Shown here: positions 6,106-56,584 of the stretch, piece after piece
How the letters are laid out: each line of letters starts with the position of its first letter
Position numbering within the stretch: position 1 is the first letter of the stretch
Assembly: GCA_023227695.1 (NCBI GenBank)
Contig: JALNVE010000002.1
Coordinates: 13,767-77,766, forward strand
Source: Paludibacteraceae bacterium
GTDB taxonomy: Bacteria > Bacteroidota > Bacteroidia > Bacteroidales > Paludibacteraceae
Length of the DNA stretch: 64,000 nt
Direction: 5' to 3'
Translations under genes and position numbers: made by a program
The notes under the pieces: model-generated
Seen by the model: only the letters and a program-made list of their open reading frames with translations
Told to the model about the DNA's origin: nothing
The model's database searches: none

Positions 6106-6159
6106 AACCACCTCTGTTATGAACAGACATATCAAAAAGAATGTTAGTAGGCATCTTCC

Positions 6160-29167: not shown

Positions 29168-32014
29168 TCACTTGATTGTTTTCCAATAGAAATCGTGTTC
29201 TGTTTTTTTATAGTCATCTGTCAAAAAGCGTATTTTTATCTTTGAGACTAAAGAATCTGAAAGGGAAGGGAAATATGCGAAGAAGACTTTGGTTTTCACG
29301 TTTTCTTCAAGAGAAGTCTTTTCCGAATACAAAATCATTCCTTTCGGAAGTCTGTTTATATCGGTAATAGAAAAGGAAGACATTGTCAAAGGAACAGAAT
29401 CTGATGTCAGGGAAAAAGTAAAAGGTCTTAACATCCTTGTGGAAATGAAATCACCGAGTTTTAATCCGGAAATATTCGTATAGCTGTGAAAGAAAAAGAT
29501 GTTTGTTCCTGAAACCGCTGTAAAAACATATCCGTTGGTAGAAGAAAGACCGGAAATGTCGGTAGTCAATTCAGAATCTTTCTTTATATAGATATTTGAA
29601 ATTGAACAAGACGTAAAAACGTTTGAATTTTCTGAAAACCCCGAAAAGAAATAAGGAGGTTTCATATCTTCTTCCAAATCATATCTTATGGAAAGAGAAG
29701 CATTGGAATTTCCTCTGTTCGAAATCACGATATTGTCGATACCGAAACTTTCAGGAGATTGCATGAAAAGTCTTTTCCCTCCAGAAGAAAATGTCTCTGA
29801 ATATGAATTATAAACCCTGGTTGTAGGAGAAGATTTGTTTCCCGACTTAAAAAAGTAGGAAAAGTTTAGACACGGAGGAATATTCGTAATGACGGCTTCA
29901 TTTTCCGCACTCCAGTGTATGTCATTCAATTTGTGTTCCGTATACATATTCAAATTAGATTCACAGATGAATAAACTAATATCAGACTGTTGGGAAAAGG
30001 GTTCACGATAGAGATAAAGATTATAAGGGGGAGGATGATGCATGTTTGTTCTGCAAAAGGTATAAACATTATCATTGGTTGTGTTGATAACCCATCCATA
30101 AAAATCAGTAGAAACCCCACTGGGGGAGGTCAGCCTTCCTCTATAATGATAATTCCCATTGGTATCAGATGAAGAATATCGATTAGAATCTTTTTCCAAT
30201 TGAATGATGCTTGATTCTTTGAATTTGAATGCTTCTGCTGTTTTGACCAAACCGAGAGGATATGATTTAAAGGAAAGTCCGTTTGAAACACTAATTTCAT
30301 CTGGATAAGGATGAAGGGTTGATTGACCAGGAAACAGAACAGAAGCAGGATCTCCGAAAAGGGCATTGGAATAGAATATAAAATGAAGATATCCAAGTTG
30401 AAGAGAAAAATATCCAACCATCCTCTCTTTTGAATCAGTATATACGTCTCCCAGGAGATGGCTGGTTTCTCTTAGCATATCATCAAAAAACAGGCGCATA
30501 AGGAAAACGCTATAATACGGATTGTTGTTGCTATACCACCCGTCCCTTTGGTTGACGACGGCGGCCCATATTCCGTTGCTAGAAGAAAGCATCGCTTCTG
30601 TCCAGCATTTTAATCCGGTCGTTTCAGCCTTGTCAAAACCACCTATAGAACAGGCAACGCTATAAAAAAGAAAAGTAACGGAATTTGTGATTTCTTCCGG
30701 AATGAAATTATAATTATCTATACCATAACAGGATCTATCAGCACCGTGTCCGATATGAGTTATGAGAGAATATCCTGAATTAAAATGTTTTTTGCCGGTA
30801 TTTTGATCAACGATATTGGTAAAAAATGTGTCATAACTTATTTTATTCCCGAACCTATTGGTAACACCCATCGAATTGAAAGTTAATGTCTGATTAGGAA
30901 ACAGGAAAAGAATATTGTTAGAGCTGCTTATTCCCTTTTGAATTTCTTCCCCGCAAAACATAAATTTCTCATCTTTTAGGCTTTCTTCCCTTTGAATTGT
31001 TTTTCTTATCATATTCTCAGCGTCTTGTTTTTCCCATGCGGGGAGTCTCCCGATTTTAATTTCAGAGTAACAATCTATAAAATTGCCGTTTTCTCCGTCA
31101 TTCTCTTCTCCGTAAATCCCGTTTTGGTTATTGTCAAAATCTCCATCTAGGTTTCCGTAATATCCTTGGTCTTGAGGCATATAAAGCGTTCCTATAAAAC
31201 CGGAATAGAGAAACATCCTGACTGGCACTTGTTTTGTTCCTCCGAGGATAAGAAGATACCGAGTTCCCCAATTTAAATAAGCGTCTTTGCAGAATTCTCG
31301 GATTTTCATTTGACCGTCAGTCCCAATATAATTATTATATATCCAGTCCACAGTAACGAGGTTTGTGGAAAACCCTTTTGAATGGCGATATTCTAATAAA
31401 GATTGAGGGCTGTATTCTGAATCGGCATATACCAGGCTTGATGTCGTTAGGATAACGTATTCATGGTTACCTCTTTCAAGCATCGAAACAGGAGGAGAAA
31501 TTGACTTTGAAACAGGACTAGAAAACGTTTTTATCGTAAACCTAACTGAATCGAAATGAATATATTCAAGTTTTGAACGAGAATAAGAACACGGGGAAAA
31601 CTTAAAAAGGAGATAATTAGTACCGTTTTTCCTTTGTTCTGTCCAGAAAACGGGTTTTTGAACAGGATATTCTGCATCAAAGATACCGTTAGTAAAAGAA
31701 GACGTTCCTGTCCTGAAATCATTATACGGGATTTCAGCCGTTTCTATCAAACCAGAGAGTTTGTATTTATGACTGGTTAAAACTTCAAAATCTATAGAGT
31801 CAACCATTTCTTCTGATTTCAACACCTCTCGGAAAACGATAGTCGGCAAAATCGGCAATCCAGGTTCAGGGATATTGATACAGTTTTTGACATTGACTGA
31901 AACCGTATCCCCGAATGTTTTAAAATCCGGCGGTTGAAATTTTTCTTCCCAATTTTTTTCTAAAGCAGAAGAAAAAAGAGGCAAAAAAAACAGAAGACTA
32001 ATAAGAATATTCAA
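29168..32014 (-). CDS. secreted protein with peptidase C25 (gingipain)-like domain
   Basis: It has a signal peptide (MNILISLLFFLPLFSSA). The C25-like pattern is YVILTTSSL...RYLLILGGTKQVPV...LITHIGHGADRS (candidate catalytic His)...FLFYSVACSIGGFD (candidate catalytic Cys). The ~400-aa C-terminal region is unassigned. Confidence 0.6.
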   Translation of the reverse strand: MNILISLLFFLPLFSSALEKNWEEKFQPPDFKTFGDTVSVNVKNCINIPEPGLPILPTIVFREVLKSEEMVDSIDFEVLTSHKYKLSGLIETAEIPYNDFRTGTSSFTNGIFDAEYPVQKPVFWTEQRKNGTNYLLFKFSPCSYSRSKLEYIHFDSVRFTIKTFSSPVSKSISPPVSMLERGNHEYVILTTSSLVYADSEYSPQSLLEYRHSKGFSTNLVTVDWIYNNYIGTDGQMKIREFCKDAYLNWGTRYLLILGGTKQVPVRMFLYSGFIGTLYMPQDQGYYGNLDGDFDNNQNGIYGEENDGENGNFIDCYSEIKIGRLPAWEKQDAENMIRKTIQREESLKDEKFMFCGEEIQKGISSSNNILFLFPNQTLTFNSMGVTNRFGNKISYDTFFTNIVDQNTGKKHFNSGYSLITHIGHGADRSCYGIDNYNFIPEEITNSVTFLFYSVACSIGGFDKAETTGLKCWTEAMLSSSNGIWAAVVNQRDGWYSNNNPYYSVFLMRLFFDDMLRETSHLLGDVYTDSKERMVGYFSLQLGYLHFIFYSNALFGDPASVLFPGQSTLHPYPDEISVSNGLSFKSYPLGLVKTAEAFKFKESSIIQLEKDSNRYSSSDTNGNYHYRGRLTSPSGVSTDFYGWVINTTNDNVYTFCRTNMHHPPPYNLYLYREPFSQQSDISLFICESNLNMYTEHKLNDIHWSAENEAVITNIPPCLNFSYFFKSGNKSSPTTRVYNSYSETFSSGGKRLFMQSPESFGIDNIVISNRGNSNASLSIRYDLEEDMKPPYFFSGFSENSNVFTSCSISNIYIKKDSELTTDISGLSSTNGYVFTAVSGTNIFFFHSYTNISGLKLGDFISTRMLRPFTFSLTSDSVPLTMSSFSITDINRLPKGMILYSEKTSLEENVKTKVFFAYFPSLSDSLVSKIKIRFLTDDYKKTEHDFYWKTIK

Positions 32015-32817: not shown

Positions 32818-32846
32818 TTGACAAATGTGACAAGAAAAGGTATATT
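32818..32846 (+). promoter_or_regulatory. sigma-70-type promoter (TTGACA-17-TATATT)
   Basis: The -35 is at 32818-32823 and the -10 at 32841-32846, with a 17-nt spacer. It lies 31 nt before ATG 32877, at the strand switch. Confidence 0.6.
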
Positions 32847-32876: not shown

Positions 32877-33932
32877 ATGACTTATTATGATGCTCTACTA
32901 AACTGTTTTTTCAAGGGGATTACCGGAAGCCGGGCTTATGGCACGAATTTACCGACCAGTGATACGGACTACCGTGGAGTGTTTATCCTTCCGACATCTG
33001 AGAGGATCGGATTGTTTGATCTCCCGAATGAAACCGTAAATCCAGAAGAGAAAGATGACAAACTGTATGAGTTGAAAAAGTTTTTCGATCTTGCGATTAA
33101 AGCAACTCCGAATATCATCGAACTTCTGTGGTTGCCTCCTGATTGTATTATCAAGACCTCTAATGAATGGGAGAACATCCTAGCCAATCGCAACATGTTT
33201 ATTACAAAGAAGGCGGTGTTCACCCATAGCTGTTATGCCATTTCCCAATTGAAAAAGGCAAGAGGTCAGAATAAACTTATCAACAACCCGATGCCTGTAG
33301 AGAAGCCGTCCCGTTTGGATTTCTGCTGGGTTTCCGTCAAAGAAGGCAGCAAGACAGTTACAATTCCGATTTCTGAAACAGACATTGATCTTTCAACGTG
33401 TAGGGCGACGGCGATTCCACATCTTACTAACTGCTACAACATCTTTCCAAACGGGAAAGGAGTCTTCAAAGGGGATATGTTGGTTTTTGAGAGCGTTCCC
33501 AAGAAAGAAGAGGACACCTGTTTGGGAATGTTGACCTATCAGGAAGACGGGTTTAAGTCAGCTTTGACCAAGTGGAAGGAATATTGGGATTGGATGAAGA
33601 ACAGAAATCCTGATAGGTGGAAAAATCAAGAAAAAGGTCTTGATTTTGACGAAAAGAATATTTTACATTTGATCAGAATCCTGATGTCTGCAAAGAACAT
33701 CGTGGATAACCGTGAACCGATTGTCAGATTTCAAGGCAAGGATTTGGAATTCCTTCGAAAGATAAGAGAGGGATATTTCACTTATGAAGAATTGATGGAT
33801 GTCGCGAATCCTCTTTCTGATTATATCGAAGGGAAGATGAACGGTGTAATTGACCTTCCGGATTCATGCAATATGAAGAAGGTAAACCGTCTTTTCATGG
33901 ACACAATCACTTCGTGGGAAAGGAACAAGTAA
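32877..33932 (+). CDS. Pol-beta-superfamily nucleotidyltransferase, RlaP (RNA-repair-associated) type
   Basis: GSRAYGTNLPTSDTDYRGVFILP...DDKLYELKKFFDLAIKATPNIIELLW matches the PF10127/RlaP-like N-terminal pattern. Confidence 0.65.
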   Translation: MTYYDALLNCFFKGITGSRAYGTNLPTSDTDYRGVFILPTSERIGLFDLPNETVNPEEKDDKLYELKKFFDLAIKATPNIIELLWLPPDCIIKTSNEWENILANRNMFITKKAVFTHSCYAISQLKKARGQNKLINNPMPVEKPSRLDFCWVSVKEGSKTVTIPISETDIDLSTCRATAIPHLTNCYNIFPNGKGVFKGDMLVFESVPKKEEDTCLGMLTYQEDGFKSALTKWKEYWDWMKNRNPDRWKNQEKGLDFDEKNILHLIRILMSAKNIVDNREPIVRFQGKDLEFLRKIREGYFTYEELMDVANPLSDYIEGKMNGVIDLPDSCNMKKVNRLFMDTITSWERNK

Positions 33933-33933
33933 A

Positions 33934-35328
33934 ATGAGCATCGGATTAACAACGGCGATGGCTACGGGAGGCATTGGTGCCGCCTTAGCGACTGCCTTTT
34001 CACAAGTAAGAAATGTCATTAATTCCTTTCGGTCTGTTTTCATATGTGTGACCACCTATGAAGATTTAAGCGATATGGCGTTTTTTGAATGGATCAAAAG
34101 CAAAAGGGTTTACTGTTTCGGAGACAGCACATATTTCTTAGAAGAAAGGCATGAAACATCCAAAATCAGATTCGGCTTGCTAAAATCCCGGTTTAGGAAC
34201 AAAATCTGTATCGGTTTTTTCCCGTTTCCGGTTATCATAAAATATGATAACACATCACGGCAAGCACAGATGATTTATGTCAGGTTCACCCTAAATGCTG
34301 TGGAAATAGGAAAAGAACTTTTTGATATAGACATAAGATGTAATTTGGGACAAATAGAAGAAAATAGAAAAGCAAAAGAAAACATACATAGGAAAGAATA
34401 TTCGAACATCGTTTTTGTCAACGGTTCACTTGGAAATTCTTCATCTAAAAACGAAGGGACTGTAGATCGGCCTAGGACAGATCCATCATCAGATTCTCCT
34501 TCTGGTGAAGGAAAGATTGCAAATGGTGGAAAAGGCGGCGTAAACTTCACGAAGCATACAGACCGTAAGTATTCAGAAACACTCAAAGGCTTTGAATATC
34601 AACTGAAGCAGAAGACTCCTTTTGATATGTTCTATTATGGCGAAGACTTTCTTCCCGTCATTAAAGAAGTTGAAACTTGGATGAATATGCGGAGTTGGTA
34701 TAAGGGTATGGATATCCCTTGGAAAAGGGGAATGTGCCTTTATGGACCCCCAGGCACGGGGAAAACAAGTCTTATCCGTAATATAGCGAAGACGCTCGGA
34801 ATGGACATTTATGTCTTTAACCTTGCTTCTTTTAGGGATTCTGAGTTTTTGGATTCCGTTTTGCGCTATGGGAGAAGCGGAGGAGTGTCTGACTATAATC
34901 CTTCCTTTTTTCTGTTTGAAGATATTGATGTCGTTTTTAACGGACGGGAAACAACAAGTAAAAACACGATGCAGAACCCTTTAACCTTTTCTACTTTCAT
35001 CAACGCGATTGACGGTATCTGTGAAATTAACGGAGTCTTTTTTGCTGTAACGACGAACAACCTTTCCAAAATAGATCCTGCTCTTTTAAGGCCGGGGAGG
35101 ATAGACGGATGTTATGAAGTGAAGCCTTTTGGAAGGGAAGGGCAGACAGTTCTCGCGGAAAAAATCCTTTCCGAATGGCCGGAAGAAATCATAAATGTCG
35201 TTACGGATTCCTTTGTAACGGGGGCTGAATTTAAAAACAAGTGTTTAAAAATCGCCCTAATGAAAAAGTGGAAAACGGAAAACCAGAAGCTATTGAATCA
35301 TAAAAAATCGGTGGATTTGACAACATAA
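33934..35328 (+). CDS. AAA+ ATPase, Bcs1-like
   Basis: WKRGMCLYGPPGTGKTS (Walker A), FFLFEDIDVVF (Walker B) and TTNNLSKIDPALLRPGRID (sensor/Arg finger region). The long N-terminal domain resembles Bcs1-type ATPases. Confidence 0.75.
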   Translation: MSIGLTTAMATGGIGAALATAFSQVRNVINSFRSVFICVTTYEDLSDMAFFEWIKSKRVYCFGDSTYFLEERHETSKIRFGLLKSRFRNKICIGFFPFPVIIKYDNTSRQAQMIYVRFTLNAVEIGKELFDIDIRCNLGQIEENRKAKENIHRKEYSNIVFVNGSLGNSSSKNEGTVDRPRTDPSSDSPSGEGKIANGGKGGVNFTKHTDRKYSETLKGFEYQLKQKTPFDMFYYGEDFLPVIKEVETWMNMRSWYKGMDIPWKRGMCLYGPPGTGKTSLIRNIAKTLGMDIYVFNLASFRDSEFLDSVLRYGRSGGVSDYNPSFFLFEDIDVVFNGRETTSKNTMQNPLTFSTFINAIDGICEINGVFFAVTTNNLSKIDPALLRPGRIDGCYEVKPFGREGQTVLAEKILSEWPEEIINVVTDSFVTGAEFKNKCLKIALMKKWKTENQKLLNHKKSVDLTT

Positions 35329-35345
35329 CATTAATATGGTATCTT
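35317..35345 (+). promoter_or_regulatory. sigma-70-type promoter (TTGACA-17-TATCTT)
   Basis: The -35 is at 35317-35322 and the -10 at 35340-35345. It overlaps the 3' end of the AAA+ gene and lies 32 nt before ATG 35377. Confidence 0.55.
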
Positions 35346-35376
35346 GTCTTTGTCTTTCAGAGAAAAGGAGATAAAG

Positions 35377-36978
35377 ATGAAATCCACATTTTTTAATCAA
35401 ACGATGGAAACGATTGTAAAATCGTTGTTCCTGAACAACCAAATATTTGTTTTTTGGGAAAAAGAAGGTACTGTTCCTTATGCTAATATAGGGAAAAAGG
35501 AAATTCACATTCCTGTCATTTGTTGTTCGGAGGATTTAGATGAAAGTACAAAAGAAGATATTCGGGCCAATTTCTTCCATGAATTGGGTCACATCCTTTA
35601 CAGTTCTGATATAAAGGAAAAAAGTTTTATTTTCAAGATTTGGAATGCAATTGAAGACCTGTGGATTGAAGACAAAATCAGCAAAAAATATATCGGAATC
35701 GGAATCAGTATAAATAATTCAAACAGGAATATCTTCTGTCAAATTTCTGAAAAGAAAAAAGGAAAAGAAAACAGCGGATTTGTTGAAGCTCTTTTATACC
35801 TAATGTTTTCTGAAATCAAATTTGTTCCAAAATGGGATATTGATGAAAATACGATTGATATGATTGAATCCGCCTATCCCATTTTTTCAAAATGGAAAGA
35901 ATCTCTATCTTCCGAAGACAATTTATATCTTGCCAAACAGATTTTTGAACTCTGGAAAGATAAAATCAAAGAAGAAGACGCCAAATCCGGAAATAAAATT
36001 GCTAATGAAGGATTTTCATTCGCATTAACAGAGGATGGAAAGGAAGAAGAATCCCCTATCGGTAAGGAACGAAATTCAAATATTTCAACCAAGATTGCTG
36101 AATTTGCTTCTTCTGGAACAATCTATACTTCTTATAAGACGGAAGATTCTTTCATCAAAATGAAATGTCTGGATTCTTACAAAAGCAAATTTAAAGAATA
36201 CAAGGAAAAACTAGGAAGACCTTTGCTGTCATTGATATGTTCTATCCAAGAAAAGATGGAAGCATTTATTCTTAATGATAGCATTGACGGAATGGAAGAA
36301 GGAAAAATCAACCGTAAAATGCTCCCTCAGATTGCTTTCGGACTCCGTAAAGATGTTTTCACTGTAGATGCCGAAGGAATCGATTTAAATACTGCCGTTT
36401 CTATTTGCGTAGATCAAAGCTATTCAATGAACAGAATTGACACACAGGTAAAGAATACTCTCATCGTTTTGGGAGAAACCCTTAACAAGATTGAAATCCC
36501 GTTTGAAATATTTTCTTCTTCAACGAAGTCTCCGAAGAATAAAAACGATGCCTTTACAAGATGGAGAAGCATGGTGTTCTGTATTTACAAGGATTTTGAT
36601 GATAATTGGAATTCTGTTTGCCATTCTGTCATGGGTTTTAAGGGCCTTGAAAATCATATTGATGGAGAATCGATTTCTTATTCCGTTTCTAATTTGAGGA
36701 AACGCAAAGAAAAACGCAAAATCATCTTTATCATTACCGATGGAGAATCCTTTAGCGGTCAAGACCAAAATTCAAACGCAGAAATAACGAAAAATCTTTC
36801 TACCGTCATTATGAACGCAAGAAAAGAAGGAATTGAAGTCTATGCCATTGCGATTGACTGCGGGGATACTCTGTCAAACCATTATGGAAAAGAGAATGTT
36901 TCAATAATCGATTCCAAAAATTCTCTGAATTTTTCAAAGACTATTCTTACGGATATCTGTAAAATCATAACAAAGTGA
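35377..36978 (+). CDS. vWA-domain protein with N-terminal HExxH motif (CobT-like)
   Basis: FFHELGHILYS is followed by a C-terminal MIDAS motif ICVDQSYSM and IIFIITDGES. I moved the start to ATG 35377 behind RBS AAAAGGAG; the track start is a TTG inside the promoter -10. Confidence 0.65.
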   Translation: MKSTFFNQTMETIVKSLFLNNQIFVFWEKEGTVPYANIGKKEIHIPVICCSEDLDESTKEDIRANFFHELGHILYSSDIKEKSFIFKIWNAIEDLWIEDKISKKYIGIGISINNSNRNIFCQISEKKKGKENSGFVEALLYLMFSEIKFVPKWDIDENTIDMIESAYPIFSKWKESLSSEDNLYLAKQIFELWKDKIKEEDAKSGNKIANEGFSFALTEDGKEEESPIGKERNSNISTKIAEFASSGTIYTSYKTEDSFIKMKCLDSYKSKFKEYKEKLGRPLLSLICSIQEKMEAFILNDSIDGMEEGKINRKMLPQIAFGLRKDVFTVDAEGIDLNTAVSICVDQSYSMNRIDTQVKNTLIVLGETLNKIEIPFEIFSSSTKSPKNKNDAFTRWRSMVFCIYKDFDDNWNSVCHSVMGFKGLENHIDGESISYSVSNLRKRKEKRKIIFIITDGESFSGQDQNSNAEITKNLSTVIMNARKEGIEVYAIAIDCGDTLSNHYGKENVSIIDSKNSLNFSKTILTDICKIITK

Positions 36979-36998
36979 AAAGAACTTTCCCTTCATCG

Positions 36999-37027
36999 TT
37001 GACATTCCAGAAGGTTCGTGATATTCT
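36999..37027 (+). promoter_or_regulatory. sigma-70-type promoter (TTGACA-17-TATTCT)
   Basis: The -35 is at 36999-37004 and the -10 at 37022-37027. It lies 27 nt before ATG 37054. Confidence 0.55.
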
Positions 37028-37053
37028 TACAAAAGAAAAAAGAAAAGGAGTTT

Positions 37054-38268
37054 ATGAAAAAACTTACGAAAATAGACTATGATAGTCTTGAACATTTCTG
37101 GGAAACCTGTGGAAATAAAGAAACTTTAATTCTCCCGTTTGATTCTGCTTCAGCAGAATTTAAAACGATAAAGATTAGCGCCTTTAAAAACGGATATCTT
37201 CTTTCCGTGAAATCTTTATATGAAGTTGAAGCCACTAAAATTTCTCAATATTCTTCCCATAAGGAATCTTCTCGGAAAACTGTTCCTGAATCAGAAGACC
37301 AAAAAGATGAAGTTTTTGAAACAATCCAAGGATTTGAAAAATATCATTCACCTTTATGTATGAAGGAAATCCTTGCTCTTATGTCTTCTGACCGTGCAGT
37401 TAACATATGGTTCAGCGGACCTTCCGGATGCGGGAAAACCACAGCCGCGAGGTACATCGCTGCCACTCTTGAACGGAAACTCTATAAGATTAATGGTGAC
37501 GGTGGAACGACTGCGAATAGTTTTTTCGGTGCGAATACCGTGGTGATCGATAAGGAGACAAAAGAAAATAAGATTGTTTTTTCTGACGGAATCGCCGTTA
37601 AGGCGATGCAAGAAGGTCTTGATGAAAATGGGAATATCTGTGGATCTCCAGGGATTCTTTTTGTTGATGAAGCCGCAAGTCTGTCTCCTGGTGTCGGAAT
37701 CGCTCTTAATTCTATTCTCGAAACGCGTTCACCGGTTCGCGAGATCACCCTTTCAGAAGACAACGGAAGAATTGTCAAAAGTCATCCCGGTTTTGTTATT
37801 ATCCTAGCGGGAAACACGAACGGACTAGGAGCTTCATCTTCTAGTCAGCAACAGTATTCCGCTCAGCGTCGGGCTCTTGACGTTTCCATGATTCAGCGGA
37901 TTACAGCGACCTTTCGCTTTGGATATGATAAAAAGGCAGAAAGTGAAATCATAAACAGCAATATTCTTGACTTTGAAACGGCTTCTAAATTTATGGAATT
38001 CAAAGATTGCATAAGAAAAGCGATGAAGGATGGAGAAATTCTTACGCCGTTTTCCACAACGAAGGTAATTGACATTTGTGATTCATTTAAGATGTTTTGT
38101 TTACAAAATGACAATTTTACGGCATTGGCCAATGCCGTAACGTGTTGCTACCTTGAATCAATCCTTCCAGATGAAGCATCGGTGGCGGATGAACTTTTCC
38201 GCGTCTTCTTCGGTTCAAAAGCGACAGATCTTGTAAAAAAAGATTATGAAAACTATGATTATATTTAA
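37054..38268 (+). CDS. AAA+ ATPase (CobS/MoxR-like)
   Basis: Walker A GPSGCGKTT and Walker B ILFVDEAASL. It is adjacent to the vWA protein, the usual CobS/CobT-like pairing in phages. I moved the start to ATG 37054. Confidence 0.7.
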   Translation: MKKLTKIDYDSLEHFWETCGNKETLILPFDSASAEFKTIKISAFKNGYLLSVKSLYEVEATKISQYSSHKESSRKTVPESEDQKDEVFETIQGFEKYHSPLCMKEILALMSSDRAVNIWFSGPSGCGKTTAARYIAATLERKLYKINGDGGTTANSFFGANTVVIDKETKENKIVFSDGIAVKAMQEGLDENGNICGSPGILFVDEAASLSPGVGIALNSILETRSPVREITLSEDNGRIVKSHPGFVIILAGNTNGLGASSSSQQQYSAQRRALDVSMIQRITATFRFGYDKKAESEIINSNILDFETASKFMEFKDCIRKAMKDGEILTPFSTTKVIDICDSFKMFCLQNDNFTALANAVTCCYLESILPDEASVADELFRVFFGSKATDLVKKDYENYDYI

Positions 38269-38285
38269 GAAGGGGGATATCCTGA

Positions 38286-38636
38286 ATGGAAGACAATAAC
38301 AGATTTTCAATTTATGAAATGATAGGGAAGAAGATTAATTTTACCCGACACGGCAAAACAGTTGGAGGGTTATGTCAACACGTCATCCGCTGGCCGCTAG
38401 ATAACAGCATCCTGATTATAATTAATGGTTTAACGTATCCTTTTCCAGAACCGACCAAGATAAATTCGGAAGAAGGGAAAATTTCTTTTCTCTATGGTTC
38501 TGGATCTTTTGATAATGAAAACGATCTTCTCGAATTTTGCGGTGAAGCTTTAAATATTGAATGGGGAGAAGATATAAGGAAATCAATCGGGAGGGAAAAA
38601 AAATGCTTTGTGATTGATTTTATTATCGAACAATAA
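38286..38636 (+). CDS. hypothetical protein
   Basis: ORF track. Confidence 0.45.
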   Translation: MEDNNRFSIYEMIGKKINFTRHGKTVGGLCQHVIRWPLDNSILIIINGLTYPFPEPTKINSEEGKISFLYGSGSFDNENDLLEFCGEALNIEWGEDIRKSIGREKKCFVIDFIIEQ

Positions 38637-38643
38637 TCCTGAA

Positions 38644-38988
38644 ATGGATAAAGACATGGCTAGCTTGAAAATAACAAACGATCTTCGCAAAGACATTATT
38701 AATCTTATAAATGACAATATTTTATTAATAAACGATATCCGTTTTGAACTGTTCGTTTCTCTTAAAGAAATCAGAAAATCATTAGAAACGGAAGACGAGA
38801 AAGAATCTCTTTTAACTTCTGCGGAAGGACATGAAGAAAGACTATCTAATTTATATTGTTTAACGCAGAATCTATCATACCATAAATATTTCTTGGAAAA
38901 CAGGAAAGAAACTGATGCGGAAGCAGAAAGCGTATTAAAATGGTATGATAGAGTAAAGTCTATATTGAAGGAAGGACAATCCCCATGA
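38644..38988 (+). CDS. hypothetical protein
   Basis: ORF track, with the start moved to the first ATG after the upstream stop. It overlaps the RNA ligase start by 4 nt. Confidence 0.4.
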   Translation: MDKDMASLKITNDLRKDIINLINDNILLINDIRFELFVSLKEIRKSLETEDEKESLLTSAEGHEERLSNLYCLTQNLSYHKYFLENRKETDAEAESVLKWYDRVKSILKEGQSP

Positions 38989-40145
38989 GAAATCTAGCAA
39001 GCATACAAAAGATATCTAGACTCGAAGAAATTCCAGAAGCAAAAAACGTTATCAAGGCTTTTGTTTTGGGATGGGAAATCGTTGTTAAAAAGAATGAATT
39101 TAAGCCTGGTGATTTATGTGTGTTCTTCGAAACAGACTCCTTGTTGCCAAAAGACAATACCGTATTCTCTTTTATGGAAAGTCGCAAGTTCCGGGTGAAA
39201 ACAGTAAAGTTAGCAGGACAAATAAGTCAGGGACTTGCATTGCCGATTTCCATGTTTCCGGAAATCGCTGATTCTGAAATAAAGGAAGGATTGGATCTTA
39301 CAGAAAGACTTAAGATTGAAAAATATGAAAAGGAAGAAGAAACTTTTGTTGAACCTAAAATAAATATCAATTCTCATATACTTAAGTTCGTATTGAAATA
39401 CAAGGTTATGAGGAAATTGATTCTCCCTTTTATTTCTAAATCGAAAAGGACTTTCCCGTCAAGGATTATTTCAGAGTCAGATGAAACCCGCATTCAATGT
39501 ATGCCTGGAATTCTTGAAAAAGAGAAGGATTCCATTTTCATTGCAACTGAAAAGCTAGAAGGTTGTAGCGCAACTTTTACGATCAACAGAACCTGTTTGT
39601 TCTGGACTTCGGTTAGTGTTTGTAGTCGGAAAAGAAACCTGCCAAGAAGTCAAAACATATGGTGGAATATGTATGATGACTATTGCATTCAATCCTATCT
39701 GAAATGGATTATAGCGCTTCTCGGTATGAACGTTAAGTCTGTCGGGATTCAGGGAGAAATCATCGGACCTAAGATTTGTAAAAATATCTATTCCCTAAAG
39801 GGACATGATTTGTATATTTATCGTCTGAAGATCAATTATAGAAACGGGAATGTCAAGTTCCTTAACCATTATGAAATGCAAGACTTGTTTGAATCGATTC
39901 GAAAGGAATTCGGAATCTACGCAAAACTTAAAGTAGTTCCTGTCCTTTGGGAAGGAATTCTTAAAGGATTCAAGGACGTTAATGCCATTTTGGAATTCGC
40001 TAACGGATTTTCGAAACTAAAACAGGATCAGTTGCGTGAGGGACTGGTTTTCTCCAAACTGAGAGACCCGAGCGTAAGTTTTAAAGCTGTAAGCCGAGAA
40101 TATCTTATTTGGAAGAATAAGAAAGAAGATGAATTCAACATCTGA
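38985..40145 (+). CDS. RNA ligase, DRB0094 (Rnl5)-like
   Basis: The N-terminal module is ASIQKISRLEEIPEAKNVIKAFVLGWEIVVKKNEFKPGDLCVFFETDSLLP...VKLAGQISQGLALP. The nucleotidyltransferase motifs are TEKLEGCS (motif I Lys), GIQGEIIGPKICKN, and EGLVFS...SFKAVSREY. Confidence 0.75.
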   Translation: MRNLASIQKISRLEEIPEAKNVIKAFVLGWEIVVKKNEFKPGDLCVFFETDSLLPKDNTVFSFMESRKFRVKTVKLAGQISQGLALPISMFPEIADSEIKEGLDLTERLKIEKYEKEEETFVEPKININSHILKFVLKYKVMRKLILPFISKSKRTFPSRIISESDETRIQCMPGILEKEKDSIFIATEKLEGCSATFTINRTCLFWTSVSVCSRKRNLPRSQNIWWNMYDDYCIQSYLKWIIALLGMNVKSVGIQGEIIGPKICKNIYSLKGHDLYIYRLKINYRNGNVKFLNHYEMQDLFESIRKEFGIYAKLKVVPVLWEGILKGFKDVNAILEFANGFSKLKQDQLREGLVFSKLRDPSVSFKAVSREYLIWKNKKEDEFNI

Positions 40146-40422
40146 CATTGATAAAATCCTTAAAAGGTACAAAATAGTTTTGACGGAAGGGATCGTCAAA
40201 GAAATACCCATAAATGATAAATATTTTCATTTAGACGACACCGGAGGTTTTATATTCTGCCGATGGAGTGACAATATATATATTATCTCACATCCTTCAA
40301 AGGGAAGAGGGTGGTATCCCAAATCGGACTTTGAACACCTCCTTTTAAGTTCTATATGCGATGGATTGATTGAAAAAACAAAAGGAATTTTCGCCTTCGG
40401 GACATATGCGAATTTTATTTAA
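40129..40422 (+). CDS. hypothetical protein
   Basis: ORF track. Confidence 0.4.
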   Translation: MNSTSDIDKILKRYKIVLTEGIVKEIPINDKYFHLDDTGGFIFCRWSDNIYIISHPSKGRGWYPKSDFEHLLLSSICDGLIEKTKGIFAFGTYANFI

Positions 40423-40443
40423 TTCAGATTACCAAATACAAAC

Positions 40444-41322
40444 ATGAAGATTAATATTTATACATCATTGAATGGGGTTGGCCTTGAGAAAGATGCAAGT
40501 TTATTAATCAAGTTATTGTCTGGTTGCGGGTATGAAATCCACGTCTTTGATCGGAAAAGGAGTCAAAGAGGGAATAGGGCTGATATACAGATTCATCTTG
40601 AAATTCCAAGATATGACTGTATTCAGTTGTCTAAAAGGAATATTTTAATCCCAAACCCAGAATGGTTCTATCCTAATTGGAAAGATGGTTTACTGAAGTT
40701 TAAGGAAATCTGGTGCAAGACGCTGGATTCTTTCAAAATCTTTCAGAAACTTCACCAATCTTGTGTTCTAACCGGTTTCATAAGCCAAGACTTTTACTTG
40801 CCTGAAATCAGAAAAGAAAAGAAGCTGATTCATATTTCAGGATATTCAAAAACCAAGGGCACTCTTGAAATAATTAAAGCATACCGGCGCGACAAAAATC
40901 TCCCGAAGTGTCTTTTTGTCGGTACGAGTGAATGGGATGTCTCTGGGTGTAATATAGAACAGTTGGGAAGAGTGTCAGAATCTGATTTAAAACGCTTGAT
41001 GAATGAGAATTTAATACACCTATGTCCTAGCTATTATGAAGGATGGGGACATTATTTACATGAAGCCGCGAGCACAGGTGCTATTGTAATCACAACGGAC
41101 GCGCCGCCGATGTCAGAATTCTTCAAGACGCATCTGGTAAGGGTTTCTCACACGTCGAAAATGAATTCAGCGATAATGTCTTATCCTGATTCAGAATCGA
41201 TTGCATTACTAATACGTGAAGTAATGCAATCAGATTTCCTATTAGAAACAGGAATGTACAACAGGAATCAATTTTTAGAAAGAAACACGGCAAGCGAATC
41301 GGCGATATTATTAGGAATTTGA
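40444..41322 (+). CDS. glycosyltransferase, GT-B (family 1/4-like)
   Basis: The C-terminal pattern PSYYEGWGHYLHEAASTGAIVITTDAPPMSEF is the typical E-x-x-G...EA...G-x-P-V-I signature. Confidence 0.6.
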   Translation: MKINIYTSLNGVGLEKDASLLIKLLSGCGYEIHVFDRKRSQRGNRADIQIHLEIPRYDCIQLSKRNILIPNPEWFYPNWKDGLLKFKEIWCKTLDSFKIFQKLHQSCVLTGFISQDFYLPEIRKEKKLIHISGYSKTKGTLEIIKAYRRDKNLPKCLFVGTSEWDVSGCNIEQLGRVSESDLKRLMNENLIHLCPSYYEGWGHYLHEAASTGAIVITTDAPPMSEFFKTHLVRVSHTSKMNSAIMSYPDSESIALLIREVMQSDFLLETGMYNRNQFLERNTASESAILLGI

Positions 41323-41326
41323 ACAC

Positions 41327-42622
41327 ATGAAAATAATTATTCTATGGGCGACTTGTAGACCAGATATTTTTAAATCGACACATCAGCACTGGATCGAAAA
41401 TTCTTCTGGTTTTTATGAAATCGAGACACGTGTCGCTGTTGATACGCAAGAACAAAAAGAAAAAATTTCCGGATTTGATGTCATTGTAGTTAAAGGGGAA
41501 CAGAAAGGAGTCTGTTTCCCGTCTTATTGTCTTTCCAAAAACCTTGAAGCAGAAGATTCTGATATTGTTATCCTCGCCAGTGATGATTTCTTTCCACCGA
41601 ATAATTGGGATAAAACCATTATCAACCTTATCGGGAAAGACAAGGATTGTGTTCTGTTGGTAAATGATGGAATACAAAAATATCCGGCTAGGGTAATTAC
41701 CTTTCCGATAATGACTTTTTCCGCACTGAAGAAGATGAAGAAGATTATATATAACCCCGTTTACAGTCACATGTCAAGTGATTGTGAACTCTATGTAATC
41801 GCTGAAAGAATGTGTATATTAAAAGACGTAAGAAAATCCTGCAAAGAAATTTTTGAGCACAGGCATTATTGTAATGGGAAAAGAGAAAGAGACGAAGTCG
41901 ATAAGGCTCTAGATTATTCTTATTCTTCAGGAACAGAACTATTCCGTTCCAGAATGAAGAAAAACGTTTGTCGGCTTCTCCAAGTAGATCCTTCTATAGA
42001 AGATAAGGCTTCTCATTATTCTTTGTCTTATAGTAAACAGGGTAAAAACAACGTTCCCGACATTCGACTTTCTATATTGATATGTTCTGTTAAACAAAGA
42101 CAGGACTTACTTAAACGATTATTGGAATCCCTTCAGAAGCAAAAGACACCAGAAATAGAAATTTTGACAGAAGTTGATGACGGTAATATTAAAATCGGGA
42201 AGAAGAGAAATATGCTTCTTGAAAAAGCGAAGGGAGACTATCTCTGCTTCATAGATGATGATGATTTAGTGAGTGAAGATTATGTTAAGAAAATATTGTC
42301 TGCAATTCATAATAATCCTGATTGTTGCTCCTTAGAGGGGATTTACACCGTTGATGGTAAAAACCCGACTAGATTTATTCATTCCGTTGATTATAACAAA
42401 TGGGAAACTGTAACTGAAAACGGTGAAACGGTCTACCTAAGATGTCCAAATCACTTAAACGCAGTAAAAAGGGAACTGGCAGTCATTGTCGGATTTAAAG
42501 ATGAACTTTCACAAGGAGAAGATAGGGATTATTCAGAACGACTTCTTCCTTTATTAAAAACTGAATCTAAAATCAACGGTTCAATATATAAATATTTATT
42601 CATATCAAAAAACAGGAGATAA
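41327..42622 (+). CDS. two-domain protein, C-terminal family 2 glycosyltransferase
   Basis: LSILICSVKQRQDLLKRLLESL...GKKRNMLLEKAKGDYLCFIDDDDLV is the GT2 DxD region. The N-terminal ~230 aa are unassigned. Confidence 0.6.
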   Translation: MKIIILWATCRPDIFKSTHQHWIENSSGFYEIETRVAVDTQEQKEKISGFDVIVVKGEQKGVCFPSYCLSKNLEAEDSDIVILASDDFFPPNNWDKTIINLIGKDKDCVLLVNDGIQKYPARVITFPIMTFSALKKMKKIIYNPVYSHMSSDCELYVIAERMCILKDVRKSCKEIFEHRHYCNGKRERDEVDKALDYSYSSGTELFRSRMKKNVCRLLQVDPSIEDKASHYSLSYSKQGKNNVPDIRLSILICSVKQRQDLLKRLLESLQKQKTPEIEILTEVDDGNIKIGKKRNMLLEKAKGDYLCFIDDDDLVSEDYVKKILSAIHNNPDCCSLEGIYTVDGKNPTRFIHSVDYNKWETVTENGETVYLRCPNHLNAVKRELAVIVGFKDELSQGEDRDYSERLLPLLKTESKINGSIYKYLFISKNRR

Positions 42623-42623
42623 A

Positions 42624-43217
42624 ATGTATTCACAAAACAATGAAGAACAGATAATTCTAAAATGCCTTGAAGATGCAGGTTCTTCAAAATTTATAGAGAT
42701 AGGCGCTTATGATCCCTTTAAATTTTCGAACACAAGGCGGCTGGTTGAACTTGGATGGGAAGGTGTTTATGTTGAACCTTCTACTCCTTGTTACGCAAAA
42801 TTTCAAAAGGAATACCAGAATAATCCTAAAATTATGCTCTATCCGTTTGCTGTCGGGAAAGAAAAGGGGAACGTGTTGTTTTACGAATCTGCGGATGCCA
42901 TAAGTACAACTTCTAAACCCTGGAAAGAATTATGGGAAAATGGTTCTAAAAGTCAGTTTATTGAAAAAAGGGTAGATGTGATAACAGGAGAAGACCTTTA
43001 TTCTCTTTGCGGTCAAGGGTCTGTCTTTTTAAATATAGATACGGAAGACACGAACATAGATGTCCTAAATTCATTCAGGGAAGAAACGATTTCTAAATTT
43101 AGGTTGATATGTATAGAACATCAGGGAAAACTTCGATATTTAAGAACCTATTTCAAAAAGATCGGATTTAGAGAAGTTCTTTTAAATAATGAGAATTTCA
43201 TTTTTCAAAAGGTATAA
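42624..43217 (+). CDS. FkbM-family methyltransferase
   Basis: FIEIGAYDPFKFSNTRRL...GVYVEPSTPCYAKF...LYPFAVGKEKGNVLFY follows the FkbM pattern. Confidence 0.6.
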   Translation: MYSQNNEEQIILKCLEDAGSSKFIEIGAYDPFKFSNTRRLVELGWEGVYVEPSTPCYAKFQKEYQNNPKIMLYPFAVGKEKGNVLFYESADAISTTSKPWKELWENGSKSQFIEKRVDVITGEDLYSLCGQGSVFLNIDTEDTNIDVLNSFREETISKFRLICIEHQGKLRYLRTYFKKIGFREVLLNNENFIFQKV

Positions 43218-43964
43218 ATGGAATATATTTTTGCAAATTGGTGTCTTTCTAGCAATGTCGGAGACCAGCTTACCCCTTATCTTGTGGAAAAAATTTCTGG
43301 TAAGAAATGTGTTTTCTGTGATCAAAACAGCCGGGTTTTGAAATATGTCGTCGTTGGAAGTATTCTAAATTGGGAAATCAAAAACGCTGTTTTTTGGGGT
43401 ACAGGGATTGCAGATTCAAAAGACAACATCGGAATAAAAGACATCCGTTCTGTGCGCGGATATATATCAAAAACAGCCGCAATGAATTTCGGAAATGACT
43501 GTTATACCGCAAGTGTAGGAGATCCTGCTTTAATCCTTCCGAAGATATATTCATCAGATGTCAAGAAAACTAATTCTTTGGCGATTGTCCCTCATTATAT
43601 AGATTTGGAATATTTTGTTTCCAAGTTCGGAAGCCGTATAAGGATAATAAATCCTCTACAGTCTGTTGAAAACTTTATCGATGAAATTTGTTCATGCGAG
43701 TCAATCCTTTCTTCGTCTCTTCATGGTTTGATAATCGCGGAAGCCTATGGCGTAAAAACAAGGTGGGTGAAATTCGGGAATCGTATCGGCGGCGACGGAA
43801 CGAAATTTAGAGACCACTATTCATCGATAAACACAGTACAAGAATGTCTTGATCTATCTGAATTCAACGGGAAATTTGAAGAAATAGAATCGACTAGGAA
43901 GAAGATACCTGATGATTTGGTGTCACGAATGTTGGAAACTTGTCCTTTCAGGGGAAAAATATGA
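43218..43964 (+). CDS. polysaccharide pyruvyl transferase-like protein
   Basis: GDQLTPYLVEKISG...VVGSIL...VRG...GDPALILPKIY...SSSLHGLIIAEAYGV follows the PS_pyruv_trans pattern. Confidence 0.55.
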   Translation: MEYIFANWCLSSNVGDQLTPYLVEKISGKKCVFCDQNSRVLKYVVVGSILNWEIKNAVFWGTGIADSKDNIGIKDIRSVRGYISKTAAMNFGNDCYTASVGDPALILPKIYSSDVKKTNSLAIVPHYIDLEYFVSKFGSRIRIINPLQSVENFIDEICSCESILSSSLHGLIIAEAYGVKTRWVKFGNRIGGDGTKFRDHYSSINTVQECLDLSEFNGKFEEIESTRKKIPDDLVSRMLETCPFRGKI

Positions 43965-44827: not shown

Positions 44828-44836
44828 GACAAAGAC

Positions 44837-50032: not shown

Positions 50033-50133
50033 TTTCGCCAAACAAAGAAGTGAAATGGTTATTACTTCGATAAGGAGTTTTATACAAAGACGGATTCAAG
50101 TTTCGACAATTCATAAGAAAGGTGGTTTCATTT

Positions 50134-56516: not shown

Positions 56517-56584
56517 CGAATCGTGTTCTTGGGTAAGGTATTTTTTATTAGATATTCCTTTTATAAGATAACAAGAGGTTACTT

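What the first reader, a model, noticed from the sequence alone, without database searches (positions are those of the whole stretch)
32877..40145. RNA-repair supercluster: RlaP nucleotidyltransferase, Bcs1-like AAA+, vWA/HExxH, CobS-like AAA+, and DRB0094-type RNA ligase
A single promoter-led plus-strand block carries five recognisable genes. They are an RlaP-type Pol-beta nucleotidyltransferase, a Bcs1-like AAA+ ATPase, a vWA protein with an HExxH motif, a CobS/MoxR-like AAA+ ATPase and an Rnl5-type RNA ligase; two small unknown ORFs sit before the ligase. Elsewhere the window also holds RtcB, a two-piece CCA-adding enzyme, a PTH2-like hydrolase and a tRNA. Comparative-genomics work on RNA-repair operons (Burroughs and Aravind) links RtcB, RlaP and vWA/MoxR modules. 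This concentration suggests a multi-route system for mending tRNAs cut by host anticodon nucleases. The roles of the AAA+/vWA components are unknown.
Basis: partly seen in the sequence, partly recalled or inferred. Interest (0 to 1): 0.65.

Follow-up and report, generated by a model that had tools for sequence, protein, structure and literature searches.

The report
RNA-repair genes flanking a chaperone cassette
In a giant-phage genome, two RNA-mending enzymes sit either side of a widespread viral ATPase/adaptor gene set that shows no link to RNA repair in other virus families, so the proposed "RNA-repair supercluster" is most likely two known modules that happen to lie side by side.

Summary
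All seven ORFs exist at the stated coordinates, and every family call holds: RlaP nucleotidyltransferase, Bcs1-like AAA, vWA protein with an invariant HExxH motif, CobS-like AAA_5 ATPase, and a DRB0094/Rnl5-type RNA ligase. RtcB, a two-piece CCA-adding enzyme and one tRNA are also in the window. PTH2 was not found.

The functional reading is only partly supported. RlaP and the ligase are a sensible repair pair, because RlaP leaves the 3'-OH end that a 5'-phosphate ligase needs. The vWA/CobS pair is the known viral cobST-like (MoxR-vWA-metallopeptidase) cassette. Across about 150 independent viral and metagenomic loci it keeps its ATPase partner, and often orf116, but never has RlaP, the ligase or RtcB within 10 kb. 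Conversely, 56 RlaP loci and 79 ligase loci never carry vWA or CobS.

The order RlaP...vWA-CobS-orf116...ligase recurs only in this phage family (33-60% identity), where the flanking genes are syntenic too. AAA1 and the downstream glycosyltransferase cluster come and go as indels. The tightly packed plus-strand array runs on through five glycan-modification genes.

Verdict: new members of known kinds. The juxtaposition is family-specific, and a functional link is not excluded but is unsupported.

The parts
32818..32846 (+). sigma70-like promoter candidate (TTGACA-17-TATATT) in the divergent intergenic gap upstream of RlaP
   Evidence: It matches 11 of 12 consensus positions, and the sequence was read directly. 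The host's promoter type is unknown. Promoter-like sites overall are not enriched over shuffles (51 found against 41.5 +/- 6.7 expected).
32877..33932 (+). RlaP-family Pol-beta nucleotidyltransferase (351 aa). The catalytic motifs GS (residues 17-18) and DxD (29-31) are intact.
   Evidence: PF10127 4.1e-15 and phrog_388 1.6e-44. The motifs are invariant against phage homologs. The gene has 215 phage records with homologs.
33934..35328 (+). Bcs1-like classic AAA+ ATPase (AAA1, 464 aa). It has an N-terminal hydrophobic helix, a beta-rich middle domain, a disordered linker and an AAA core with Walker A at 34744-34767, Walker B at 34915-34929 and RPGRID at 35089-35106.
   Evidence: PF00004 4.6e-20. 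By sequence its PDB matches are AFG2, VAT and BCS1. In the AlphaFold model (pLDDT 66) the top 11 Foldseek hits are full-length Bcs1 at E 6e-22 to 6e-17, followed by YjoB. The gene is absent from family members L233 and L319.
35344..36978 (+). CobT-like vWA adaptor with an N-terminal zincin-like HExxH domain. The likely true start is ATG 35377. HELGH lies at 35578-35592, NAIEDxWIE at 35644-35670 and the MIDAS motif DxSxS at 36412-36426.
   Evidence: CobT_C 5.8e-11 and VWA 2.9e-6. The profile matches solved CobT 9uka_G at 7.6e-40 over the C-terminal two-thirds only. The motifs are invariant. The N-domain model has pLDDT 85, and its top fold hits are all zincins (selecase, jannalysin, ArdC, archaemetzincin, Wss1), but with E >= 0.05. 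TIGR01651 CobT scores 30 bits against a cutoff of 759.
37018..38268 (+). CobS-like MoxR-type AAA+ (AAA_5) motor. The likely true start is ATG 37054. Walker A GPSGCGKT lies at 37417-37440 and Walker B ILFVDE at 37654-37671.
   Evidence: AAA_5 3.5e-12 and phrog_249 1.5e-37. PDB matches are midasin at 4e-10 and CobS at 3e-6. TIGR01650 scores 36.8 bits against a cutoff of 558.55. The gene is adjacent to vWA in about 72 of 78 viral loci. Its homolog in L233 and L319 carries an intein.
38286..38636 (+). orf116, a small conserved protein of unknown fold that recurs directly downstream of the CobS-like gene
   Evidence: Homologs follow CobS in L003, L005, L018, L025 and L047 and in 18 of 80 metagenome loci. 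It has no Pfam, NCBIfam or PDB match.
38614..38988 (+). orf124, a small poorly conserved ORF. The position is kept in relatives but the sequence is not.
   Evidence: It is 39% identical to its counterpart in L001. It has no detectable similarity to the ORF at the same position in L233 and no family hit.
38985..40145 (+). Rnl5 / DRB0094-type ATP-dependent RNA ligase (386 aa) with an N-terminal OB domain and a nucleotidyltransferase domain. Motif I KLEG lies at 39552-39563, motif III QGE at 39750-39758, motif IV EGLVF at 40038-40052 and motif V FKAV at 40080-40091.
   Evidence: PF21189 4.1e-28 and PF09414 5.7e-17. phrog_968 2e-59. It aligns to Naegleria NgrRnl across both domains at 7e-33. TIGR02306 scores 128.9 bits, below the 151.15 cutoff.

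Best explanation
The block is a real, tightly packed gene string in a roughly 300-kb jumbo phage. It is most likely a mosaic of two modules of known kinds that are not functionally integrated.

Module 1 is the two end genes, RlaP and the Rnl5/DRB0094-type ligase. Inferred from family biochemistry: RlaP adds one or two nucleotides to the 3'-OH of a trimmed RNA, and the ATP-dependent ligase then seals the 3'-OH/5'-phosphate break. RtcB, which joins 3'-phosphate or cyclic-phosphate ends to 5'-OH ends, and the CCA-adding enzyme elsewhere in the window provide parallel routes.

Module 2 is the middle: the viral cobST-like cassette. A CobS-like MoxR-type AAA+ ring is the motor. A CobT-like vWA/MIDAS protein, whose usual N-terminal domain is replaced by a zincin-like HExxH domain, is the adaptor and probably a protease. 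orf116 is a recurrent third partner. In part of this phage family a Bcs1-like AAA+ is added. By analogy with the solved CobS-CobT, NorQ-NorD and CbbQ-CbbO machines, the motor would use ATP to drive the adaptor, whose MIDAS site holds a protein client that is remodelled and possibly cleaved. That client is a protein of the phage or host and is unknown; nothing found here suggests it is RNA.

The position of the cassette between RlaP and the ligase reflects conserved gene order in this phage family.
For: Shown:
- Family assignments and intact catalytic motifs.
- vWA and CobS stay adjacent in about 72 of 78 viral loci. None of these loci, and none of the 79 independent metagenome loci, has RlaP, Rnl or RtcB within 10 kb.
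- None of 56 independent RlaP loci has AAA1, vWA or CobS. None of 79 Rnl loci has vWA or CobS, while 8 have RtcB and 4 have RlaP.
- In annotated phages RlaP sits near a CCA-adding enzyme or tRNA genes, without AAA or vWA genes.
- The recurrent neighbours of the cassette across 154 loci are integrase, terminase, a LuxR-type regulator, a WGR protein, primase-helicase, AAA+DUF7025 and PolIII alpha. None is an RNA-repair gene.
- Family members L233, L319, L315 and L320 keep the block, but they also keep the flanking backbone. AAA1, the C25 peptidase and the 5-kb glycosyltransferase cluster behave as indels.
- L317 has RlaP at 53% identity and lacks the cassette.
- Tight packing continues through the glycan-modification genes.

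Literature:
- RlaP adds 1-2 NMP and leaves a 3'-OH suited to 5'-phosphate ligases (PMC12776372).
- cobST is a widespread viral two-gene cluster (PMC8651126).
- The MoxR-vWA-metallopeptidase pair and BCS1 are described as jumbo-phage chaperones (PMC7824862).
- The CobS ring / CobT adaptor mechanism is described in bioRxiv 10.64898/2026.07.21.739949.
Against: - The order RlaP...vWA-CobS-orf116...Rnl survives several independent indels at 33-60% protein identity (window, L001, L233/L319, L315, L320). That is also what selection for linkage would produce.
- RlaP and AAA1 are separated by a single base.
- A more distant phage, L321, places a Bcs1-like AAA two genes from RlaP and an Rnl5-like ligase, with RtcB and PTH2 a few kb away.
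- Phages D6 and RVTF4 have a Bcs1-like AAA 7-8 kb from their Rnl5 ligase.
- No 5'-kinase or 3'-phosphatase end-healing enzyme was identified for the ligase route.
- The client of the cassette is unknown, so 'the client is not RNA' is an inference.
- phmmer with single queries could miss very divergent repair enzymes in the surveyed loci.
Confidence: 0.6

Rival explanations
1. Integrated RNA-repair or RNP-remodelling system. The CobS-like motor, the vWA adaptor, orf116 and the Bcs1-like AAA would extract or remodel damaged tRNA-protein or ribosome complexes so that RlaP and the ligase can reach the broken ends.
For: - Co-linearity persists across the phage family through several indels.
- RlaP and AAA1 are 1 nt apart, and orf124 overlaps the ligase gene.
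- L321 has a Bcs1-like AAA next to RlaP and an Rnl5-like ligase, with RtcB and PTH2 nearby.
- The best PDB sequence match of the CobS-like protein is midasin, an AAA+/MIDAS remodeller of pre-ribosomes.
Against: - None of about 150 cassette loci outside the family has a repair gene nearby, and none of 135 RlaP or ligase loci has the cassette.
- The flanks are syntenic as well, so co-linearity is not specific to the block.
- L317 lacks the cassette.
- AAA1 is dispensable within the family, as shown by L233 and L319.
- No RNA-binding domain was detected in any of the four proteins.
- No partner ncRNA is present.
- The same tight packing extends to the glycosyltransferases.
Confidence: 0.15
2. The cassette, with or without the Bcs1-like AAA, is a virion-assembly or maturation chaperone-protease set, as proposed for jumbo phages by Iyer et al. 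2021. This is a specific version of Module 2 and is compatible with the best explanation.
For: - The literature proposes this role for the MoxR-vWA-metallopeptidase pair and for BCS1 (PMC7824862).
- The HExxH and MIDAS motifs are invariant.
- The AAA1-vWA-CobS trio is conserved in L005, L015, L315 and L320.
- Terminase is a recurrent neighbour, in 26 loci.
Against: - In the window the cassette sits in an array of auxiliary genes (RNA repair, glycan modification), not among recognisable structural genes.
- Most recurrent neighbours elsewhere are replication, integration or regulatory genes.
- No experiment on any phage homolog was found.
Confidence: 0.2
3. Auxiliary metabolic genes. The viral CobS/CobT pair would hijack the host's CobN to raise cobalamin synthesis (Liu et al. 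2021).
For: - There is true homology to solved CobT (7.6e-40) and CobS (3e-6).
- The hypothesis is stated in the literature (PMC8651126).
Against: - Scores fall far below the cobaltochelatase equivalog cutoffs: 30 against 759 bits for CobT and 37 against 559 bits for CobS.
- In the solved holoenzyme the CobT N-domain contacts the CobS small subdomain and CobN. That domain is not detectable here, and a zincin-like HExxH domain stands in its place.
- No CobN-sized ORF exists in the window.
- No B12-related gene appears among the recurrent neighbours.
- GvpN scores almost as well as CobS.
Confidence: 0.05

Closest known systems
Viral cobST-like cluster, also described as the MoxR AAA+ / vWA-metallopeptidase pair of jumbo phages (Liu et al. 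2021, PMC8651126; Iyer et al. 2021, PMC7824862)
   Same: It has an adjacent AAA_5 motor and a CobT_C/vWA adaptor with a MIDAS site and an N-terminal HExxH domain. It occurs widely in tailed viruses.
   Different: Here a conserved small third gene (orf116) follows the pair and a Bcs1-like AAA precedes it. The WGR protein that separates vWA from CobS in the nearest subfamily is missing. The cassette lies between two RNA-repair genes.
Aerobic cobaltochelatase CobS-CobT (CobSTN holoenzyme; PDB 9uka and related entries)
   Same: The AAA+ motor and the vWA C-terminal domain are homologous, and the motor-adaptor logic is the same.
   Different: Scores are far below the equivalog cutoffs. The CobT N-domain is replaced by a zincin-like domain. 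No CobN is present.
Rnl5 nick-sealing RNA ligases (Deinococcus DraRnl/DRB0094, Naegleria NgrRnl)
   Same: It has the N-terminal OB domain and the nucleotidyltransferase domain with motifs I, III, IV and V, and no C-terminal domain.
   Different: Motif I reads KLEG where KxDG is usual. About 40 residues are inserted between the two domains. It scores slightly below the TIGR02306 trusted cutoff.
RlaP nucleotidyltransferases of RtcB and RNA-ligase operons (Burroughs and Aravind 2016; Carruthers et al. 2025 preprint)
   Same: It is a PF10127 member with an intact Pol-beta active site, encoded in the same array as an RNA ligase.
   Different: It belongs to a phage clade. The ligase lies 5 kb away with an unrelated cassette in between, and RtcB lies 21 kb away.
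Mitochondrial Bcs1 / bacterial YjoB / jumbo-phage BCS1 orthologs
   Same: It has a single classic AAA domain preceded by a Bcs1-type N-domain according to the fold search, plus an N-terminal hydrophobic helix.
   Different: The Pfam BCS1_N model does not match. A 60-residue disordered linker is present. Heptamer formation and membrane association are untested.

Membership tests
RlaP (PF10127) | Profile match above the curated cutoff | tested here: met
   It scores 56.6 bits against a cutoff of 23, and phrog_388 gives 1.6e-44.
RlaP (PF10127) | Pol-beta catalytic signature (G-S and DxD) | tested here: met
   G17-S18 and D29-x-D31 are invariant in the alignment with phage homologs.
RlaP (PF10127) | Addition of 1-2 nucleotides to the RNA 3'-OH | not testable with these tools
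   This activity is known only from the Pseudomonas enzymes (PMC12776372).
Rnl5 / DRB0094 RNA ligase | N-terminal OB domain, adenylyltransferase domain and no C-terminal domain | tested here: met
   PF21189 covers residues 4-88 and PF09414 covers 185-368. NgrRnl aligns over both domains.
Rnl5 / DRB0094 RNA ligase | Motif I lysine and motifs III, IV and V | tested here: met
   K190 (in KLEG), E258, E352-G353 and K367 are conserved against NgrRnl and phage homologs.
Rnl5 / DRB0094 RNA ligase | NCBIfam equivalog score | tested here: inconclusive
   TIGR02306 scores 128.9 bits against a cutoff of 151.15. It is the only hit, at E 1.9e-37.
Bcs1-like AAA+ | Single classic-clade AAA domain with Walker A, Walker B, sensor-1 and arginine fingers | tested here: met
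Bcs1-like AAA+ | Bcs1-specific N-terminal domain | tested here: inconclusive
   Pfam BCS1_N gives no hit. In the fold search the top 11 hits are full-length Bcs1 aligned over 420-470 columns. The N-domain has pLDDT of only 45-77, and TM-scores are 0.36-0.50.
Bcs1-like AAA+ | Heptameric membrane-anchored translocase | not testable with these tools
   Only a predicted hydrophobic N-terminal helix (residues 4-36) is available.
Cobaltochelatase CobS/CobT | Equivalog-level similarity to CobS and CobT | tested here: not met
   CobS scores 36.8 bits against a cutoff of 558.55, and CobT scores 30 against 759.05.
Cobaltochelatase CobS/CobT | CobT N-domain, which binds CobS and CobN, and a CobN partner | tested here: not met
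   The CobT match covers only the C-terminal part. The N-domain has no PDB sequence match and gives zincin-type fold hits. No ORF in the window is large enough to be CobN.
Viral cobST-like / MoxR-vWA-metallopeptidase cassette | Adjacent AAA_5 motor and vWA/MIDAS adaptor | tested here: met
   The two are adjacent in the window and in about 72 of 78 viral loci. The MIDAS motif is invariant.
Viral cobST-like / MoxR-vWA-metallopeptidase cassette | N-terminal zincin metallopeptidase domain on the adaptor | tested here: inconclusive
   HExxH and a downstream NxxED...E are invariant. The confident model shows a sheet followed by two helices. All top fold hits are zincins, but with E >= 0.05.
RNA-repair operon | Ligase plus nucleotidyltransferase | tested here: met
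   RlaP and Rnl5 lie in the same array. Elsewhere Rnl5 co-locates with RtcB and RlaP.
RNA-repair operon | End-modifying kinase or phosphatase, or a scaffold protein, within the unit | tested here: not met
   None is present in 32877-40145. A Metallophos gene lies 7 kb away on the other strand.
RNA-repair operon | Co-conservation of the AAA and vWA genes with the repair genes beyond close relatives | tested here: not met
   None of about 150 cassette loci and none of 135 RlaP or Rnl loci shows it.

The most novel reading that the evidence does not exclude
In this jumbo-phage family the juxtaposition is functional: a counter-defence island that both removes the weapon and repairs the wound. The CobS-like motor, with its vWA-zincin adaptor, orf116 and in some members a Bcs1-like AAA, would seize and cleave or dismantle a host ribotoxin complex (of the PrrC/RloC type) or a stalled ribosome-tRNA complex. 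RlaP would then refill lost nucleotides and the Rnl5 ligase would reseal the tRNA. If so, it would give the widespread viral cobST-like cassette its first defined client.
Probability: 0.1. Interest if true: 0.7.

Novelty: new member of a known kind. Interest (0 to 1): 0.3.

Why it matters
The result shows that a plausible-looking "supercluster" in a jumbo phage can be family-level synteny between two independent modules, which warns against guilt-by-association in long co-directional phage gene arrays. It also sharpens an open question. The viral cobST-like cassette is very widespread, strongly constrained (invariant HExxH and MIDAS motifs, and an intein lodged in the motor gene of one relative) and has no known client. 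The survey adds two leads: a recurrent small third partner (orf116) and repeated recruitment of a second, classic AAA+ ATPase (Bcs1-like here, AAA+DUF7025 in other lineages). The RlaP plus Rnl5 pairing also fits the recent biochemical finding that RlaP products suit 5'-phosphate ligases better than RtcB.

Tried and rejected
- Nucleotide search of the block against 50,697 phage records found nothing. tblastn with the vWA protein also found nothing.
- A single-protein scan of viral contigs with CobS found no relative.
- orf116 and orf124 have no Pfam, PHROG, NCBIfam or PDB sequence match.
- The vWA N-domain has no PDB sequence match even at E = 10.
- PTH2 was not found by a motif grep, by NCBIfam on three small ORFs or by a phage PTH2 probe.
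- I rejected the idea that the Bcs1-like AAA is generally linked to RlaP or Rnl. Only 1 weak case appeared in 135 loci, despite L321 and D6.
- I rejected 'true cobaltochelatase'.
- I considered TAG recoding because of the suppressor tRNA. TAG is rare but is used as a stop in 6 of 70 ORFs, and none of the seven block genes depends on it.
- No partner ncRNA reaches an Rfam gathering threshold.

Full report
**Observation.** Profile searches confirm each family.
- 32877-33932 is an RlaP nucleotidyltransferase (PF10127, 56.6 bits against a cutoff of 23; phrog_388 1.6e-44). The Pol-beta GS...DxD signature is intact.
- 33934-35328 is a classic-clade AAA+ ATPase (PF00004).
- 35344-36978 combines CobT_C and vWA with the motif HELGH at residues 79-83.
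- 37018-38268 is an AAA_5 ATPase in the PHROG family annotated as CobS/porphyrin biosynthesis.
- 38985-40145 has the PHA02142 OB fold and an RNA_ligase domain. It aligns over both domains to Naegleria NgrRnl (7e-33), and its only NCBIfam hit is the DRB0094 family (128.9 bits, slightly under the 151-bit cutoff).
- The two small ORFs, 38286-38636 and 38614-38988, have no family.

A strong sigma70-like site lies in the 69-bp divergent gap before RlaP. ATG 35377 and ATG 37054, each behind an AAAGGAG ribosome-binding site, are better start codons for the vWA and CobS-like genes.

**Context.** The window is part of a jumbo phage.
- A 304-kb IMG/VR contig is syntenic across all seven genes at 39-92% identity.
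- RtcB lies at 55089-56516.
- A CCA-adding enzyme is encoded in two pieces at 6160-7971(-) and 4291-5001(-).
- A single tRNA with anticodon CTA lies at 53999-54075.
- A PTH2 hydrolase was not found, although some small ORFs were never scanned.
- The genes right after the ligase are GT1 and GT2 glycosyltransferases, an FkbM methyltransferase, a pyruvyl transferase and a GT47-like protein.
- All 14 genes from 32877 to 45376 are packed with gaps of 39 nt or less, and the first convincing terminator follows 45376.

Operon-like packing therefore does not single out the five "repair" genes.

**What the middle genes are.** The vWA profile matches the solved cobaltochelatase adaptor CobT at 7.6e-40, but only over its C-terminal two-thirds. 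The ATPase matches midasin and CobS. Neither comes near the cobaltochelatase equivalog cutoffs (30 against 759 bits, and 37 against 559 bits).

In eight diverse homologs the HExxH motif, a downstream NxxED...E motif and the MIDAS motif DxSxS are all invariant. A confident model of the N-domain (pLDDT 85, pTM 0.82) shows a three-stranded sheet, a helix carrying HExxH and a helix carrying the conserved Glu/Asp residues. Its best fold matches are all zincins (selecase, jannalysin, ArdC, archaemetzincin, Wss1), though only at E >= 0.05.

This matches two descriptions in the literature. Iyer et al. describe a jumbo-phage MoxR-vWA pair whose vWA protein carries an N-terminal metallopeptidase domain (PMC7824862). 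[quoted passage not shown]

The AAA1 model (pLDDT 66) retrieves full-length Bcs1 as its top 11 structural matches, followed by YjoB. This supports "Bcs1-like", although Pfam BCS1_N does not match. [quoted passage not shown]

**Co-conservation test, forward.** Using an alignment of vWA homologs I fetched 78 independent viral loci and 79 independent metagenome loci, each with flanks of up to 10 kb. I searched all their ORFs with the seven window proteins and RtcB.
- The CobS-like gene is adjacent in about 72 of the 78 viral loci.
- orf116 homologs follow it in the closer subfamily, including 18 of the 80 metagenome loci.
- Outside the window's own family, no locus has RlaP, the ligase or RtcB.

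A census of recurrent neighbours across 154 loci gave integrase, terminase, a LuxR-type regulator, a WGR protein, primase-helicase, an AAA+DUF7025 ATPase, PolIII alpha, gp30.3 and a Tad6-like protein. None is an RNA-repair or B12-related gene.

**Co-conservation test, reverse.** Of 56 independent viral loci fetched with RlaP, none has AAA1, vWA, CobS or the ligase nearby. Of 79 loci fetched with the ligase, 8 have RtcB, 4 have RlaP and none has vWA or CobS. In annotated phages RlaP lies near a CCA-adding enzyme (PVP-SE1) or among tRNA genes (a Vibrio jumbo phage), without AAA or vWA genes. The ligase does keep RNA-repair company elsewhere. The AAA and vWA genes do not.

**Within the family.** Relatives at 33-60% identity keep the order RlaP...vWA-CobS-orf116...ligase: L233/L319, L315 and L320. 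They also keep the flanking backbone, namely homologs of w24837, w26324, w27615 and w31998 upstream and the C92 peptidase downstream.

Several elements behave as indels:
- AAA1 is absent in L233 and L319, where three small ORFs take its place.
- The C25 peptidase is specific to the window.
- The 5-kb glycosyltransferase cluster is absent in L233.
- An IS605 element is inserted in L315.

The AAA1-vWA-CobS trio holds down to 35-39% identity (L015, L315, L320). L317, with RlaP at 53% identity, lacks the cassette. L321, with RlaP at 44%, has a genuine BCS1_N AAA, then dCMP deaminase, RlaP, a 172-aa ORF and an Rnl5-like ligase, with RtcB and PTH2 upstream and no vWA or CobS. That is a hint of a loose Bcs1-repair association, but it appears in only 1 weak case among 135 surveyed loci.

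**Interpretation.** The most economical reading is two modules.
- RlaP and the Rnl5 ligase form a biochemically coherent pair. RlaP products carry a 3'-OH, which suits 5'-phosphate ligases and does not suit RtcB (PMC12776372).
- The cobST-like cassette is a self-contained motor-adaptor machine, as in CobST, NorQD and CbbQO. It probably acts on a protein client and may cleave it through its zincin-like domain.

Its position between the repair genes is family synteny. I cannot exclude a functional link within this family, because the arrangement has survived several indels. I put that at about 0.15. The cobalamin hypothesis is weak here because the CobN-binding N-domain is not present.

**Verdict.** Each component is a new member of a known kind, and overall interest is modest.

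Noticed in passing
window 55089-57854: RtcB (55089-56516) is full length. A GIY-YIG/NUMOD3 homing endonuclease follows (56585-57547). After that comes a 106-aa ORF (57534-57854) that is a diverged duplicate of RtcB's last 95 residues, at 64% amino-acid and about 72% nucleotide identity. It looks like a duplication or replacement of the gene's 3' end tied to the homing endonuclease.
   Followed up: partly
window 4291-7971 (-) and 53999-54075 (+): The CCA-adding enzyme is in two pieces. The head piece (6160-7971) carries an extra N-terminal TnsA-like endonuclease hit. A zf-C2H2/BED ORF (5005-6135) lies between the pieces. That ORF ends in TAG and is in frame with the HD/tRNA_NucTran2_2 tail (4291-5001). 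The window's own amber-suppressor tRNA (anticodon CTA) could therefore fuse the two by read-through.
   Followed up: partly
whole window: TAG is a rare stop codon: TAA 40, TGA 24 and TAG 6 across 70 ORFs. The only tRNA in the window reads TAG. This may hint at stage-specific stop-codon suppression, as reported for some large gut phages.
   Followed up: partly
L233 7266-9284 and L319 11944-13962: The CobS-like gene of a family relative carries an intein with an HNH homing endonuclease inserted at the start of the AAA domain. This suggests the ATPase is under strong functional constraint.
   Followed up: no
window 33934-35328 (protein P0009): The identical AAA1 protein is deposited in NCBI as 'MAG: AAA family ATPase [Candidatus Methanomethylophilaceae archaeon]' on a 40-kb contig. 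The phage contig was probably mis-binned into an archaeal MAG, though it could be a clue to the host.
   Followed up: no
window 20873-22021 (-): This is a second vWA-like protein (DUF2201, 2.8e-13), encoded on the other strand. A DUF2201 protein also follows the CobT-like gene in the distant locus L004.
   Followed up: no
window 40444-45376: A glycan-modification cluster (GT1, GT2, FkbM methyltransferase, polysaccharide pyruvyl transferase, GT47-like) follows the ligase directly. It is absent from relative L233, where the C92 peptidase homolog abuts the ligase.
   Followed up: partly
window 50122-51947: Two coenzyme-A pathway genes sit in a phage: a DFP/PPCS-like protein (50122-50853) and a PPCDC-type flavoprotein fused to an M23 peptidase domain (50850-51947).
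   Followed up: no
window 29168-32014 (-): This 948-aa protein has a signal-peptide-like N-terminus and a gingipain-type Peptidase_C25 domain (1.2e-38). It is missing from the same position in relatives L315, L319 and L320, so it is a window-specific insertion.
   Followed up: partly
loci L017-L094 and L232-L310: In other viral lineages the vWA-CobS cassette repeatedly sits near a different classic AAA+ ATPase carrying DUF7025 (13 loci). In the nearest subfamily a WGR-domain protein lies between vWA and CobS (22 loci). A second ATPase may therefore be a recurring accessory of the cassette.
   Followed up: partly
L321 1166-12951: A more distant phage contig has RtcB, PTH2, a sigma-70 region-4 protein, TnpB, a BCS1_N-containing AAA, dCMP deaminase, RlaP, a 172-aa ORF and an Rnl5-like ligase on one strand. 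It is a denser translation-rescue island than the one in the window.
   Followed up: partly
L315 6997-8624 and L321 6882-8117, 20336-21052: IS605-family elements (Y1 transposase with TnpB/OrfB, or TnpB alone) are inserted near RlaP in related phage contigs.
   Followed up: no
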